A DNA stretch of 64,000 bases from a virus, in IMG/VR virus record IMGVR_UViG_3300036818_000127, positions 32,001-96,000 of that record; one strand, 5' to 3'. The notes under the pieces are model-generated. The model was not told where the DNA came from and made no database searches. It saw only the letters and a list, made by a program, of their open reading frames with translations. A program made the translations under genes and the position numbers. Positions 1,317-64,000 of the stretch are shown here, in pieces; within the stretch, counting starts at the first letter, position 1, and every line of letters starts with the position of its first letter.

Positions 1317-1719
1317 AGCCCTCATCTTTCTGCGGGATAACCTTGGGTAGTGTTTGCCCACCGAGGTAGATCCTTGCCTCTTCTTTGGCCTTATCAAATC
1401 CATTGATGAAATGCACATCACATGCCCCGCATACAGGGATTACATTTCGGTAAATTAGCCCTTGGGCACGATCAAACATGCATATCTTGCTACAAGTGTA
1501 TTTCTGGCATAAGCAGCATAGGCCGTGCCAATCACTCAAAATGCTGAGCCACTCTGGAAGGACAAGAGAGATAGGAGATACACCTTGCCGTCGCGCTTGC
1601 TGAGCCGCTGACTCCACGCGATCAAATTCCCTAAGTCGATCTTTTGAGTAGCACTTCTCGCAAAGTCCATATGCGGTACGGGATGAGAATGTAAGGCCAC
1701 AGATACAGCAAGTGCTCAT
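1291..1719 (-). CDS. Zn-binding, degenerate HNH-like protein
   Basis: Multiple CxxC pairs, NVIPVCGAC. Confidence 0.55.
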   Translation of the reverse strand: MSTCCICGLTFSSRTAYGLCEKCYSKDRLREFDRVESAAQQARRQGVSPISLVLPEWLSILSDWHGLCCLCQKYTCSKICMFDRAQGLIYRNVIPVCGACDVHFINGFDKAKEEARIYLGGQTLPKVIPQKDEGYGHAEYQQ

Positions 1720-4213: not shown

Positions 4214-4741
4214 TTACCGTTCCTCACCCTTCTTAGGCAGGTATATAGCAATTCCGCTTGTCTGGATTGGTCCTCCGTCTTTGCCAGCTAATTCAATCTT
4301 CTGCACGATGCTAGCACCTCTTGCTTCTCTTTCAGCCTCAAGCGCCAATTTCAAGAGACTTACGCTTGCAAGTGCTCCGAACTTCTCAGCCTTGATAAGT
4401 TCCTCAATCTGCTTTATTGCACGTGCTTGCTGAGTTGTACCAATCAATGCTTGACGCTCATTCATTAGGTCAACTTCCTTCTCAAGCTTCTTCATCTTTT
4501 CTTCAGCTACTTTTGCAATCTGCTCTTGATCAAATTTCTTGGCACGTGCAACCCACTGATACTTGCTACTCCATTCCTCAAGTGTTCGTAAACGCACCGT
4601 CGCTTTGCCGTCGCTTTGCCGTCGCTTTGCTTTAATGACCTCTGCAAGCTTTGTAAGCGAGCGGTCTGGTCCTAGGTAGCAATATTCTAGGAAGGCTGCA
4701 GCGGCAGGCGGTGTCTCAATTTCTTCTTTTCTGTGGGCCAT
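4214..4741 (-). CDS. phage terminase small subunit-like protein
   Basis: AFLEY..LG..RSL..LA HTH, WSSKYQWVARAKKFD, C-terminal ELAGKDGGPI. Confidence 0.7.
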   Translation of the reverse strand: MAHRKEEIETPPAAAAFLEYCYLGPDRSLTKLAEVIKAKRRQSDGKATVRLRTLEEWSSKYQWVARAKKFDQEQIAKVAEEKMKKLEKEVDLMNERQALIGTTQQARAIKQIEELIKAEKFGALASVSLLKLALEAEREARGASIVQKIELAGKDGGPIQTSGIAIYLPKKGEER

Positions 4742-22736: not shown

Positions 22737-23378
22737 TTAAGCCCCTTTACGGTTCGCTTGCACTCTCTTATTTAGTTCCGCTATAAGCTTTACCATATCC
22801 CCAAAAGACAATCCTTCTAAATCAACATCAGGTAAATTAAGCATCTGATGCAGCTTTTTTACGCTCGCAATCTGTTGAACCGTAGCTGGTGCTTCTGGAT
22901 CATAGGAGGGCTTGCGTTCTTGACGTTGAACAGGAGCATCGGCCAGCCGCTCGCCTTCCTCTAACTCATCGCCGCAAAACTGAGTTCCATAGCCTAGCCC
23001 GACTAGAGCCCTGCCGATGGCACCTGTCTCTGCCTTCTCTAGGTAGTCAGGGAAGCAGGCCGCATTCTCGGTTTTAGTGCCTGTTGAGCTACCTCCCTTG
23101 CCGTCGGTAACTATTGCCCTAAAGACTGCAACTCCACGGGCTTTCTTGATAACCTTGTCATAGCGGCGCTTCTCATCATTCCAGACACTAACCTCAGTCT
23201 CACACTCTTCCGAGCGATTGAGATCGAGTAACTCAGTCGTGATTGTGCCCTCTGGACATTGCTCTCTAAACCATACCAATCGCCACGCAACGGGGAGGTA
23301 GTCCTTGGGTCCCTGCTGAGACTTGAGCTGAATGATATGAGAATTAGGGTTGAACACTTTATCAATGGTAGTATTCAT
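22737..23378 (-). CDS. Sak/Rad52-like single-strand annealing protein
   Basis: YLPVAWRLVWFRE, EKAETGAIGRAL. Confidence 0.7.
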   Translation of the reverse strand: MNTTIDKVFNPNSHIIQLKSQQGPKDYLPVAWRLVWFREQCPEGTITTELLDLNRSEECETEVSVWNDEKRRYDKVIKKARGVAVFRAIVTDGKGGSSTGTKTENAACFPDYLEKAETGAIGRALVGLGYGTQFCGDELEEGERLADAPVQRQERKPSYDPEAPATVQQIASVKKLHQMLNLPDVDLEGLSFGDMVKLIAELNKRVQANRKGA

Positions 23379-23807
23379 ATCGTCCTTTCTGGAGACCCAT
23401 TCCCTTCAGGGATTGGGAGGAAAGAAACAGCCCGCAGGCTGGATCTATACTGTTCTGTTGCTAGTCCCTTGCGGGAGGGCCTTTTTAGGAGAAAGACCCA
23501 GAAAACTCTTGCTCGATTGCGAGCCGCCGTGTCTAAGCACGGGTGATATGACCCTTCGAGATGGCAATACAGGCATAGGTCCGAGACCGTCTGCTTCGGC
23601 GTGGCAGGTAGTGGTTTAGACTAGGGTGGCATCCAAACATACTTTCGCTACTTCCACTAGCACATAAGCCTGTGGGTTCGCTATTTCTTAGCCCGTATCG
23701 CTGCTGCTTGTGCGGTGAGTTGCCTCTCCGACCAAGCCCTCTAGACAGGAACTTACGTTGCGCTAGCCGTTTCGCAAGCCCCTAGGATTTATCCAGGGGT
23801 TCTTGAC
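23379..23807 (-). mobile_element. non-autonomous IS200/IS605 element carrying a standalone omega-RNA (resembles an IsrB-type scaffold)
   Basis: Minus strand begins GTCAAGAACCCCTGGATAAATCCTAGGGGCTTG and ends TTCCTCCCAATCCCTGAAGGGAATGGGTCTCCAGAAAGGA; same end as 60399-60821. Confidence 0.75.
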
Positions 23808-60201: not shown

Positions 60202-60411
60202 ATGAAGTGCCACATATGCCTGCGAGAGCAAGGCATCATCCCATCTCAACATGACAATGACCAGCACACCCTATGTGATGAGCATAGAAATGAGGCAGCA
60301 TCAACCTTTTATGTCGGCAAGCTTGCAAGAGAGCAGGCAGGTCGCTTATATGCAGGACATCACGATCTGAATAGGCTACTTCGATTGGTGGGTAGACAGT
60401 CAGGGACCTGA
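60202..60411 (+). CDS. small Zn-binding protein; last codons supplied by the inserted element
   Basis: CHIC...CDEH. Confidence 0.5.
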   Translation: MKCHICLREQGIIPSQHDNDQHTLCDEHRNEAASTFYVGKLAREQAGRLYAGHHDLNRLLRLVGRQSGT

Positions 60412-60821
60412 TCCCTTAAAAGGGATGGGCTTGTAGAGATGGGGGTAGTTTTTGCCCGTCTTCTCTCTAGCTTCACCTGACCAGACCCAGCCAGGGCTGT
60501 TCCTAGAAGGCTCATAGAGAGCGGGAAACAGCTATCGGGCTACGTTAGAGGCGAAATTAGGTACCATAGGATGCGAGGGCCAGTCCGATGCTCTACGGTT
60601 GCAGGTTAAACAGGTTTACGAGGGTTAGTGCCAGTGCTTGCAACGACAAACCGCTTTCTAACTTCGTCGAGGCCCCCATTACCTGGGAAACCAGTGGGGT
60701 TTAGCCGTTCCGTCATAAAACGGCTCCCCGCAAGGGGATTACTCCTAAACTAATCCAGCCTGCGGGCTACTTCTTTCCTCCCAACCACTAAAAGGGAATG
60801 GGTTTCCAGAAAGGATAACTG
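60399..60821 (+). mobile_element. non-autonomous IS200/IS605 element carrying a standalone IscB-type omega-RNA (HEARO-like)
   Basis: GTCAGG...CCTGACCAGAC closing stem, CTACGTT, GGATGC..GCCAGTCC, GGTTAAACAG, GTCGAGG..CATTACC; terminal hairpin shared with 23379-23807. Confidence 0.85.
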
Positions 60822-60956
60822 ATGAGAAAGTTTTTAGCATGGGTCATCCATAGATTATCAGATAGGTGCGGTACTTGTGACTACTACGAATGTTCATATT
60901 GTTCTGCATGCCATAATCCTGATTGCTCATCGTATAGGGAGTGCTTTTACCGATGA
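60822..60956 (+). CDS. 44-aa Cys-rich protein, not in the ORF track
   Basis: MRKFLAW...CGTC...CSYCSAC; RBS and ATGA overlap with the next gene. Confidence 0.5.
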   Translation: MRKFLAWVIHRLSDRCGTCDYYECSYCSACHNPDCSSYRECFYR

Positions 60957-61663: not shown

Positions 61664-62371
61664 ATGAGCGCAAAGTTTCGGAATGTCGGCCCTGAGTCGG
61701 CAATGCCTGGAGGAGGCTCTGAGAATGGTCATTTTGACCCACGAGCCACCCACAAATTTACTGTAGATGAAGAGGAGGGCACCCTGGACAACATGGCCTA
61801 TGAGGGTGCTGCTGCCCAAAATCCGATGGTGAAACTGGTCATCGGATTTGCTCAGGTCATATGGGGATGTATCTCGAACTGTATTCAGGTTGCCACATCC
61901 AGTATGGCATGGCTGTCTATGATCACGGCACAGCCTGCATTTAATAACATCCCTGACTTTCTCATGTCTCCGTTTGCATGGAAAGTCACAATTGCACTTG
62001 TGATGGGCATTGCACCTCAAGTGTTGTTGCATATGCACAGCCAGCCTATCACGGATACCTGGATGCGACTGAAAAACATGCAGAATTTTCGGGTTAAGGC
62101 ATTCAGTAGCAAGATAGAAGTCAAGAAGGTGCTTAATGCGCGAGCATTCCTGGGCTATGTTGGTCTCGGAGCGGATGTAGTGAGTGATGCCACATTCGTC
62201 AATCTCTTCACGGAAAACATTCTTGCGATCATCTTCTGGATGTTTGTCCTTACTGGATGCAGCACCATCTGTATGTACGACGGTGCGAATAAGGTATGGG
62301 GCGCATTCGAGGATTACAGGGATTATAAGCATTATCATAATATGCATGATCCTAAGAAGGAGAAGCAATAA
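61664..62371 (+). CDS. multi-pass membrane protein
   Basis: About 4 hydrophobic segments. Confidence 0.65.
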   Translation: MSAKFRNVGPESAMPGGGSENGHFDPRATHKFTVDEEEGTLDNMAYEGAAAQNPMVKLVIGFAQVIWGCISNCIQVATSSMAWLSMITAQPAFNNIPDFLMSPFAWKVTIALVMGIAPQVLLHMHSQPITDTWMRLKNMQNFRVKAFSSKIEVKKVLNARAFLGYVGLGADVVSDATFVNLFTENILAIIFWMFVLTGCSTICMYDGANKVWGAFEDYRDYKHYHNMHDPKKEKQ

Positions 62372-62372
62372 G

Positions 62373-64000
62373 ATGCATCAAGGAGGCTCAACTAAATCAT
62401 ACATCTCTTTCGGTTTGTTTGTTTTACTTGTTGGTATTCTGTCCTCTGTTTTTGCAAGAAAGGGGACAAATGCCGTTGCTTGGCTCGTGATTGTGATACT
62501 TGCAGTTGTGTTTATTACACCAATTGTTTTCAAACACACGAGAAAACACTGGAATAGAGCGATCACGAGTAGGCCTTCTAAGCTTGATTTTGCTTTGGCC
62601 CCAAGCGGCCATAGGCGTGCTCGCTACCTAGAGACCAATGAAGAGTACGCTGCACAAACAGTTGTTATCCCGACTCCAAACAGGCCCTTAATCCCTGATA
62701 CGGTTGAAGTCCCTGATCAGAGAACACTTGCTGCTGCTTACCAGTCTACGGTATCGGCTCCATACTCTCGTAGCAAGCAACTCTATGAAATGACCCAAGG
62801 TGGTAGTCCTAGTCCGTCGAGGGCAATGGTCCCTGTAAAATCCCAATCTGTCGAATCTATTCAACAGAGGGATAACCCTAAGCTGCATCTTGCGCCGAAC
62901 TGTACACCTTATATTGACGATATTCTTGGACATGCCATTCTCGGCGTCGGAATGAGAGGAAGTGGAAAAAGCTCACTAGCCGCACTAATCATCGAGGAAG
63001 TATGCCAGCATCACATTCCTGCGCTCGTGTGTGATCCAGAAGAAGAGTACGTCACATTACCATCAGTCCTTCGAGAACGGTGTGTGATCGCTGGCCCCCC
63101 GACCTGGGGTGAAAAGTGGCGATATCAAGATCTATATTGGGAAGTTACCGAAGAAAATGCGGCAGAGGTTGGGTACCTGATCTTAGATGAAGGATGGCAA
63201 GTTGTTCTGCAAGTCGGTGCATATGAAACACTTGAGCTTGCAGCAACAATCATGGTCAGTGTGATTAAAGGGATGTTTGCATGGGCAGATGATCATGATC
63301 CATGCAAACGGGTGCCTTGCCTTATCTTCCTGGATGAGGCGCAGTACTTCCTTCCACAGAATGAAACAGTCTCTTCTATTGCAAAAGAAGAAGCAAATAG
63401 CTTGCTCAAGATTTTTATGGATGTGAATGCGCGTGGGCGCAAACGTGGGCTGACTCCAGCCATCTTCACACAGCGAATAGCGCAAGTCAGGAAAGAAGTC
63501 ATTGCTGGCTCGGAGATTTACTTTCTCGGCAGGCAGACTATGGACAATGATGTCAACCGATATATAGACATTGTAGGAAAAGGAAAACTTGATCCTTCAG
63601 TAGTGCAGACATTGCCACAAGGAGACTTTGCGGTGTTTGAAGGTGGCGAAGTGTTCATTACCCATATGAACAAACGAAAATCAGAGCACCGGAGCAATAC
63701 CCCCAAGCATGCACAAGCTATTGAGAGGTATGCAAACAAGCCAGTTGCCACGAAAAAGTTTCGCTCGGTCCAGACGACATTGCTTGATGAGTATGAAGGC
63801 ACTGATCCCAGGGATGAAGACATTAACGAGAATGAAGGCTATCCCTTCTCTCCAAGTAGAGACACTGGTACAGGTGAAAACAAAATCAGCGGACAACCGA
63901 AGACACCCGATCTTATTGTGCTAGGCAAGGACCCCATATCAGGTAACCCTGTGCACACGACCAGACAAGGATTTAATGTTGCTGTCAAGCTACGCAAGGC
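62373..64000 (+). CDS. membrane-anchored HerA/FtsK-family ATPase, runs off the window end (absent from ORF track)
   Basis: Two N-terminal TM helices, Walker A GMRGSGKS, Walker B IFLDEAQ, RGRKRG, TQR. Confidence 0.85.
   Translation, partial: MHQGGSTKSYISFGLFVLLVGILSSVFARKGTNAVAWLVIVILAVVFITPIVFKHTRKHWNRAITSRPSKLDFALAPSGHRRARYLETNEEYAAQTVVIPTPNRPLIPDTVEVPDQRTLAAAYQSTVSAPYSRSKQLYEMTQGGSPSPSRAMVPVKSQSVESIQQRDNPKLHLAPNCTPYIDDILGHAILGVGMRGSGKSSLAALIIEEVCQHHIPALVCDPEEEYVTLPSVLRERCVIAGPPTWGEKWRYQDLYWEVTEENAAEVGYLILDEGWQVVLQVGAYETLELAATIMVSVIKGMFAWADDHDPCKRVPCLIFLDEAQYFLPQNETVSSIAKEEANSLLKIFMDVNARGRKRGLTPAIFTQRIAQVRKEVIAGSEIYFLGRQTMDNDVNRYIDIVGKGKLDPSVVQTLPQGDFAVFEGGEVFITHMNKRKSEHRSNTPKHAQAIERYANKPVATKKFRSVQTTLLDEYEGTDPRDEDINENEGYPFSPSRDTGTGENKISGQPKTPDLIVLGKDPISGNPVHTTRQGFNVAVKLRK

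What the first reader, a model, noticed from the sequence alone, without database searches (positions are those of the whole stretch)
60399..60821. Protein-less IscB-type omega-RNA element inserted silently at an ATGA gene junction
The element is a complete omega-RNA-like scaffold between IS200/605-type end hairpins, with no iscB. Removing it joins GGTAGACA to ATGAGAAAG and restores a stop/start ATGA overlap (..GRQ-stop / MRK). The element supplies a new stop for the upstream gene and an RBS (AGAAAGGA) for the downstream gene. The 5' flank would be the guide and ATGA the TAM (ATGA is a known IscB TAM), so a trans-acting IscB would cut element-free relatives.
Basis: partly seen in the sequence, partly recalled or inferred. 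Interest (0 to 1): 0.7.

Follow-up and report, generated by a model that had tools for sequence, protein, structure and literature searches.

The report
Nuclease-less IscB guide-RNA mini-transposon in phage
A 423-base jumping element that keeps only the guide-RNA scaffold of the Cas9 ancestor IscB sits exactly in front of a start codon in a complete 109-kb soil phage genome; this is a known kind of transposon derivative, and relatives in Ktedonobacteraceae bacteria show that it lands between a gene's ribosome-binding site and its start codon and brings a replacement ribosome-binding site.

Summary
Window 60399-60682 (+) matches Rfam HEARO, the IscB omegaRNA, over the full model at 102.9 bits (cut-off 83). 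The complete phage has no IscB and no Y1 transposase.

A second, diverged copy lies at 23807-23379 (-). Both copies end in the same conserved ~65-nt end with an SD-like AGAAAGGA, a 4-6 nt spacer and then ATGA, the start of the next gene.

A Ktedonobacteraceae MAG (G001) holds 80-90% identical copies of both subfamilies:
- 24 HEARO hits, 14 of them with no IscB beside them;
- 12 IscB genes;
- 2 Y1 transposase genes.

Three orthologous empty sites in G001/G020 show insertion exactly between the native SD-spacer and the start codon of conserved genes. No empty allele of the phage itself was found.

Two further viral contigs carry protein-less copies. Earlier work in this scan noted the same kind of element in other phages.

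Standalone omegaRNAs that act in trans, protein-less PATE-type elements and the N|ATGA target of ISC transposons are all published. This is therefore a new member of a known kind.

The parts
60383..60398 (+). Predicted guide: the 16 nt of phage flank (3' end of the 69-aa ORF) immediately 5' of the scaffold
   Evidence: Flanks 5' of GTCA are unrelated between copies. In OMEGA systems the guide lies just outside the transposon end (PMC10691335). There is no other match in the window at up to 3 mismatches.
60399..60682 (+). IscB omegaRNA scaffold (HEARO). Its first hairpin (60411-60426) doubles as the transposon end that Meers et al. call RE
   Evidence: 102.9 bits, full model; 65 consensus pairs, 29 of them with compensatory changes across 13 family members.
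60683..60694 (+). Extra 3' GNRA hairpin of the omegaRNA, beyond the Rfam model
   Evidence: Conserved with covariation in copies with and without IscB (columns 299-310).
60695..60752 (+). Internal segment with two small hairpins, specific to the protein-less lineage; it takes the place of iscB
   Evidence: Present in all short copies. Absent from the 1653-bp full-length element C503.
60753..60815 (+). Conserved omegaRNA-distal transposon end: tetraloop hairpin, subterminal hairpin (60780-60802, weakened here) and SD-like AGAAAGGA (60808-60815)
   Evidence: 89% identical to copy B. Found after iscB in full-length elements. Hairpin folds.
60816..60821 (+). Terminal spacer of the element between the SD-like motif and the start codon
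   Evidence: The spacer is 3-9 nt, A/T-rich and variable in 23 distal ends.
60822..60825 (+). ATGA: target site / predicted TAM, and start codon of the 44-aa ORF (60822-60956)
   Evidence: RTGR follows all 23 distal ends. Empty sites. N|ATGA in PMC4810608.
60202..60411 (+). Upstream 69-aa ORF. Its Gln codon (60397-60399) ends on the element's first base, and its last three sense codons and the stop (60400-60411) lie in the element
   Evidence: There is no homologue in 5.8 billion proteins.
23379..23807 (-). Copy B: a second protein-less omegaRNA element of another subfamily. Scaffold 23807-23543, shared distal end 23444-23383, SD-like motif 23390-23383
   Evidence: HEARO 33.9 bits, E 6e-5, full model. 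82-90% identical to G001 copies, two of which sit in front of ~400-aa IscB genes.
23375..23378 (-). ATGA after copy B: start codon of a 213-aa phage gene (PF27148 family)
   Evidence: An SD-like motif lies in the flank just 5' of copy B, 10 nt from the ATG once the element is removed.

Best explanation
The feature is a non-autonomous, protein-less member of the ISC branch of IS200/IS605 transposons. It keeps the two transposon ends and a complete IscB omegaRNA.

Shown:
- It belongs to a multi-copy family with sharp boundaries. The family also has full-length members that carry iscB between the same ends.
- Sister copies in Ktedonobacteraceae genomes sit, without target duplication, exactly between a gene's native SD-spacer and its RTG start codon.
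- The end that abuts the start codon carries a conserved SD-like motif at SD distance.

Inferred:
- The element entered the phage genome in a Ktedonobacteraceae-type host through a host Y1 transposase acting in trans, immediately 5' of the ATGA stop/start overlap of two small genes.
- The upstream gene now ends three sense codons later, at a stop inside the element.
- The downstream gene is translated from the element's own SD, so the insertion is tolerated.
- Read-through transcription from the upstream gene gives an RNA whose 5' part (the phage flank) is the guide. A host IscB loaded with it would cut phage genomes that lack or have lost the element (flank + ATGA), which favours retention or homing by recombination.
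For: - omegaRNA identity: with covariation.
- Boundaries and family.
- Full-length relative with a 432-aa RRXRR+HNH IscB between the same ends.
- Empty sites: G001:C494 vs G020, G001:C203 vs G020, G020:C56 vs G001:C13. All three sit at the start codon of conserved genes of 289 aa, 399 aa and about 500 aa, with the native SD left upstream of the element.
- At G001:C585 a roughly 85-nt reduced element replaces the native spacer and SD in front of a >500-aa gene I read as a penicillin-binding protein, so the element's SD must serve there.
- RTGR follows 23 of 23 distal ends, and 11 of 23 are followed by ORFs of at least 40 aa.
- Y1 transposase is present in G001 and absent from the phage.
- Second copy in the same phage. 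Protein-less copies in two other viral contigs that have no IscB.
- Literature: ISC ends and the N|ATGA target (PMC4810608); the IscB omegaRNA is bounded by the RE, IscB elements are co-oriented with the upstream gene, and the homing model (10.1101/2023.03.14.532601); standalone omegaRNAs act in trans (PMC10691335).
Against: - No empty allele or close relative of this phage was found, so the exact phage junction is inferred from sister copies.
- The host, and whether it has a compatible IscB, is unknown. G001 is only 80-90% identical in the elements.
- The distal hairpin of copy A is weakened, so this copy may no longer be mobile.
- Nothing shows that the omegaRNA is processed, or selected for, in the phage.
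- Kapitonov et al. found GT|GR, not N|ATGR, for K. racemifer ISC2 families.
- The SD-like motif could instead be conserved for transposase recognition.
Confidence: 0.8

Rival explanations
1. Inert relic. The element is a dead passenger that transposed once into the phage. Its omegaRNA is never loaded on an IscB in this phage's host, and it only persists because the insertion is neutral.
For: The distal hairpin of copy A is degraded. The phage has no IscB or TnpA. There is no evidence of selection within the phage lineage. More than half of the HEARO copies in G001 are orphans too.
Against: The scaffold still scores above the Rfam cut-off with its helices intact. There are four independent protein-less insertions in three viral contigs. 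Standalone omegaRNAs have been shown to work in trans (PMC10691335). Note that this rival differs from the best explanation only in the last, inferred step.
Confidence: 0.35
2. Phage-adapted regulatory or decoy RNA. The phage keeps the scaffold to sponge host IscB, or as a structured 5' UTR that controls translation of the downstream gene, rather than as a mobile element.
For: According to earlier notes, the same phage carries other RNA-based mimic arrays (untested here). A 5-bp pairing can sequester part of the SD-like motif in copies B and L134.
Against: The same architecture, with the same SD-like end, is found in bacterial copies and in full-length IscB elements. It is therefore a property of the transposon and not a phage invention. 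Host IscB guides derive from IS flanks and are not known to threaten phages.
Confidence: 0.07
3. Assembly artefact or host contamination. The element was joined into the viral contig by mis-assembly of a host repeat.
For: The element family is repetitive in likely host genomes.
Against: Both flanks continue phage ORFs in frame, with a junction typical of the family. A second copy of another subfamily sits at another phage gene start. The record is a complete genome with direct terminal repeats.
Confidence: 0.02

Closest known systems
Standalone omegaRNAs of OMEGA systems (Altae-Tran et al. 2021, as summarised in PMC10691335)
   Same: A mobilised omegaRNA without effector or transposase. The guide is the flank outside the transposon end. 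It is expected to use a compatible effector encoded elsewhere.
   Different: Here the omegaRNA is in a phage genome that has no IscB at all, so the effector would have to come from the host cell. Trans activity was not tested.
ISC transposons of Ktedonobacter racemifer and others (Kapitonov, Makarova and Koonin 2016, PMC4810608)
   Same: GTCA at the 5' terminus, ...ATGR at the 3' terminus, subterminal hairpins, no target duplication, a 4-bp target (N|ATGA or GT|GR), and mobilisation by a Y1 transposase in trans.
   Different: This copy has no iscB. My two informative empty sites favour N|ATGR rather than the GT|GR reported for K. racemifer. The paper does not mention start codons (0 occurrences).
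PATE-like protein-less IS200/IS605 elements that encode omegaRNAs (Meers et al. 2023 preprint, 10.1101/2023.03.14.532601)
   Same: Minimal non-autonomous elements with only the ends and an omegaRNA, acted on in trans. IscB-type elements are co-oriented with the upstream gene. The donor-joint cleavage and homing logic is the same.
   Different: Those were described in a Geobacillus chromosome, mostly for TnpB-type elements. Here the element is IscB-type and phage-borne, with an SD-like motif abutting the start codon.
HEARO RNA motif (Rfam RF02033; Weinberg et al. 2009)
   Same: Full-length covariance-model match.
   Different: No adjacent HNH/IscB ORF. From memory only (the paper could not be opened), the original description already noted ORF-less copies and integration next to ATGA/GTGA.

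Membership tests
HEARO / IscB omegaRNA (RF02033) | Covariance-model score at or above the gathering cut-off over the whole model | tested here: met
   Copy A: 102.9 bits against 83, positions 1-211. Copy B reaches only 33.9 bits. Of the two IscB-adjacent G001 relatives of its subfamily, C358 also scores below the cut-off (38.4 bits) and C185 gave no HEARO hit.
HEARO / IscB omegaRNA (RF02033) | Helices supported by compensatory changes among relatives | tested here: met
   RNAalifold on 13 family members gives 65 pairs, 29 of them with double changes.
HEARO / IscB omegaRNA (RF02033) | IscB (RRXRR + HNH) ORF directly downstream | tested here: not met
   PF14239 was not found in the whole phage. 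About 140 nt of non-coding sequence follows the scaffold.
ISC / IS200-IS605 non-autonomous transposon (PATE-like) | Multiple copies with conserved ends and unrelated flanks | tested here: met
   at least five full-length short copies of about 393-397 bp in G001, plus copies in three viral contigs.
ISC / IS200-IS605 non-autonomous transposon (PATE-like) | Similar subterminal hairpins on the same strand at both ends | tested here: met
   In L134 the two hairpins are identical, and in other copies they co-vary. The distal hairpin of copy A is weakened.
ISC / IS200-IS605 non-autonomous transposon (PATE-like) | Site-specific insertion next to a 4-bp target without target duplication | tested here: met
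   Three empty sites of sister copies. RTGR follows 23 of 23 ends. This was not testable for the phage copy itself.
ISC / IS200-IS605 non-autonomous transposon (PATE-like) | Y1 transposase available in trans | tested here: inconclusive
   There are two PF01797 hits in G001 (one interrupted by a TGA) and none in the phage. The real host is unknown.
Trans-acting standalone omegaRNA | A compatible effector in the same cell, and guide-dependent cleavage | not testable with these tools
   In G001, IscB genes sit next to omegaRNA cores 86-92% identical to copy A and 82-83% identical to copy B.

The most novel reading that the evidence does not exclude
These are nuclease-less homing elements of phages. 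By keeping only an omegaRNA whose guide is the phage flank, they use the host's own IscB to cut element-free co-infecting phages and spread by recombination. The ISC end next to the target has evolved a Shine-Dalgarno so that the family can colonise start codons, including ATGA coupling junctions of tightly packed phage operons, without polar damage.
Probability: 0.3. Interest if true: 0.6.

Novelty: new member of a known kind. Interest (0 to 1): 0.35.

Why it matters
It is a clean example of how far an RNA-guided transposon can be reduced. With no nuclease and no transposase of its own, the element still lands in a complete phage genome, and relatives carry both enzymes.

The bacterial empty sites give direct evidence that this family lands between SD and start codon of conserved and apparently essential genes, and substitutes its own SD. 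I did not find this point stated in the papers I could read.

The 80-90% identity of both phage copies to elements of a Ktedonobacteraceae genome also gives an independent host assignment for this uncultured phage.

If host IscB really uses phage-borne guides, this would be a homing system whose endonuclease belongs to the host.

Tried and rejected
Searches for an empty allele or a close relative of the phage all failed:
- The 69-aa upstream ORF in viral contigs and in 5.8 billion proteins.
- The distal-end pattern in viral contigs.
- The reconstituted junction, with a 0-6 nt gap, in metagenome contigs.
- The 213-aa gene and the neighbouring 605-aa ORF (62184-63998), which I read as an ATPase, in viral contigs.
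- Metagenome relatives of that ORF are only 56% identical and lack the small ORFs.
- GenBank phages gave no match.

Other dead ends:
The Ktedonobacteria genome copies are too distant, at 47-67%.
- Two G001 sites had no orthologous flank in G020.
- G001:C585 is not a simple insertion.
- Weinberg 2009 and Altae-Tran 2021 could not be opened.

Readings considered and rejected:
- The shared distal segment as a phage-own promoter or UTR repeat. Rejected because it is the end of full-length bacterial IscB elements.
- The four non-Ktedonobacteraceae hits, which I did not examine and assume are unrelated.

Full report
**The sequence.**
The window is bases 32001-96000 of a 109,417-bp IMG/VR virus record with direct terminal repeats, rated 100% complete. 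A gathering-threshold Rfam scan of all 64 kb gives a single hit: HEARO (RF02033), the IscB omegaRNA, at 60399-60682 (+). It scores 102.9 bits against a cut-off of 83 and covers model positions 1-211.

The 69-aa ORF 60202-60411 runs into the element. Its Gln codon uses the element's first base, and three more sense codons and a TGA (60409-60411) follow. A 44-aa ORF starts at 60822. Neither the RRXRR domain of IscB nor a Y1 transposase is found anywhere in the phage. The same two searches find 12 and 2 in a bacterial genome.

**A second copy.**
A BLAST of the element against the phage found a 62-nt, 89% identical match to its 3' part at window 23383-23444 (-). A permissive Rfam scan there gives a full-length HEARO match at 23807-23543 (-), at 33.9 bits and E 6e-5. 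Copy B spans 23807-23379. Like copy A, it ends in the SD-like AGAAAGGA, a short spacer and ATGA. Here the ATGA is the start of a 213-aa gene that has phage and bacterial homologues. The flank just 5' of copy B contains an SD-like motif that would lie 10 nt from that ATG if the element were removed.

**Source family.**
A pattern taken from the shared distal end found three contigs of one Ktedonobacteraceae MAG (DASYAN01, handle G001). G001 contains:
- 24 HEARO hits.
- 12 RRXRR ORFs. Comparing coordinates, 10 HEARO hits lie directly in front of an IscB ORF and 14 do not.
- At least five full-length short, protein-less copies of about 393-397 bp that are 73-83% identical to copy A over positions 1-413/417 of 423.
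- Copies 82-90% identical to copy B, two of them in front of ~400-aa IscB genes.
- Two Y1 transposase hits, one interrupted by a TGA.

A full-length element (C503, 1653 bp) has the same proximal end and omegaRNA, a 432-aa IscB with RRXRR and HNH domains, and the same distal end right after the iscB stop.

DNA similarity to copy A occurs in 56 of 151 sampled genomes of the class.

**Boundaries.**
In an alignment of the two phage copies with seven G001 copies plus flanks, similarity begins exactly at GTCA (60399). The upstream flanks are unrelated, as expected for a guide region.

At the other end, similarity runs through the SD-like motif. A 3-9 nt, A/T-rich, length-variable spacer follows, and then RTGR in 23 of 23 distinct ends. 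In 11 of the 23 the RTG opens an ORF of at least 40 aa, and seven of those exceed 100 aa.

Both ends carry similar imperfect hairpins on the same strand. These change together between copies, and in L134 they are identical. The distal hairpin of copy A has lost pairs, so this copy may be immobile.

**Empty sites.**
G020 is a genome with 88% identical orthologues.
1. G001:C494 against G020:C52. The element sits between the native SD-spacer and the start codon of a conserved 289-aa gene.
2. G001:C203 against G020:C61. A 133-nt reduced element sits between SD-spacer and the ATGG start of a 399-aa gene. G020 has ATGG at the empty site.
3. G020:C56 against G001:C13. A 382-nt element sits between SD-spacer and the ATGA start of a gene of about 500 aa that I read as an aminoacyl-tRNA-synthetase; this identification is from the N-terminal sequence only and was not tested.

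At G001:C585, a roughly 85-nt reduced element replaces the native spacer and SD in front of a >500-aa gene that I read as a penicillin-binding protein, again from its sequence only.

There is no target duplication. Sites 2 and 3 need fewer changes under N|ATGR than under the GT|GR model that Kapitonov et al. derived for K. racemifer ISC2 families. Site 1 cannot tell the two models apart.

For the phage, both models give the same result at protein level. The upstream ORF ends ...Gly-Arg-Gln-stop and overlaps the start of the next ORF (ATGA or GTGA).

**Phage relatives.**

Three other IMG/VR contigs carry the A-type core:
- A 32-kb contig (L132) has a short copy that ends directly in front of the ATGG start of an 89-aa ORF.
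- A 95-kb contig (L134) has a short copy ending in GTGA about 45 nt before the next gene.
- Neither of those two contigs has an IscB.
- A 5-kb fragment (L133) has a full-length element with IscB.

Earlier notes of this scan describe the same kind of IscB-less mini-element, wedged between RBS and start codon, in several unrelated phages. I did not test those notes.

**RNA.**
RNAalifold on 13 A-type copies, with and without IscB, gives 65 consensus pairs, 29 of them with compensatory changes. It also shows a further conserved GNRA hairpin (60683-60694) beyond the Rfam model. Relative to bacterial copies, copy A differs mainly by a longer variable stem-loop. Neither predicted guide has another target in the window. 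No sigma-70-like promoter is predicted on the + strand in or just before the element. Expression would therefore depend on read-through from the co-oriented upstream gene, as Meers et al. note for IscB elements.

**Mechanism.**
*Shown:* family membership, boundaries, the insertion position of sister copies, and the presence of an SD-like motif where the native SD has been displaced.

*Inferred:* acquisition in a Ktedonobacteraceae-type host by a Y1 transposase in trans; translation of the downstream ORF from the element's SD; and loading of the phage-encoded omegaRNA onto a host IscB, which would then cut the element-free junction (flank + ATGR). That last step would favour retention after excision, or homing into co-infecting genomes. 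It follows the published donor-joint model and the published trans activity of standalone omegaRNAs.

**Known or new.**
The following are all published:
- ISC transposons with GTCA...ATGR termini and N|ATGA or GT|GR targets (PMC4810608).
- Protein-less PATE-type elements with omegaRNAs (10.1101/2023.03.14.532601).
- Standalone trans-acting omegaRNAs (PMC10691335).

This is therefore a new member of a known kind.

What I did not find stated in the papers I could read is that the target RTGR is so often a true start codon and that the abutting end supplies an SD. 'Start codon' occurs 0 times in PMC4810608 and once, in another sense, in the Meers preprint. A phage that relies wholly on the host for both enzymes is likewise not described there. 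From memory only, the 2009 HEARO paper mentions integration next to ATGA/GTGA; I could not open it.

Noticed in passing
window 23379-23807 (-): A second protein-less IscB omegaRNA element of a different subfamily. It shares the ~65-nt distal end with copy A and sits directly before the start codon of a 213-aa gene, with an SD-like motif left in the flank just 5' of the element.
   Followed up: yes
window 60407-60411: Copy A has a T where all other aligned A-type copies have a C (CCTGA against CCCGA). This creates the TGA that stops the upstream ORF after three sense codons inside the element, instead of roughly 17. It is a single observation; it may limit ribosome traffic into the scaffold, or it may be chance.
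   Followed up: partly
window 22737-23378 (-): The 213-aa protein downstream of copy B belongs to PF27148 (precomputed annotation). It has homologues in 92 of 169 Ktedonobacteria genomes, usually as a single copy (the tally includes the unpublished G056 and G138). This fits a Ktedonobacteria host. Its function is unknown, and it has no Pfam-A hit in the local scan.
   Followed up: partly
L039 (G001:C585), around 1500-1600 (-): A roughly 85-nt remnant of the element (proximal hairpin fused to the distal end) is the whole spacer between an upstream stop codon and a >500-aa gene that looks like a penicillin-binding protein. The orthologous G020 locus has a 29-nt spacer with its own SD.
   Followed up: partly
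L134 4130-4543 (-) and L132 405-807 (-): Two other IMG/VR contigs (95 kb and 32 kb) carry short IscB-less copies of the same family and have no IscB on the contig. In L134 the hairpins at the two ends are identical.
   Followed up: partly
L133 around 4502-4740: In a 5-kb 'viral' fragment, a full-length IscB element ends at about 4540 (+) and a second distal end lies on the opposite strand about 150-200 bases beyond it. Two elements may therefore abut there. The fragment may be host DNA.
   Followed up: no
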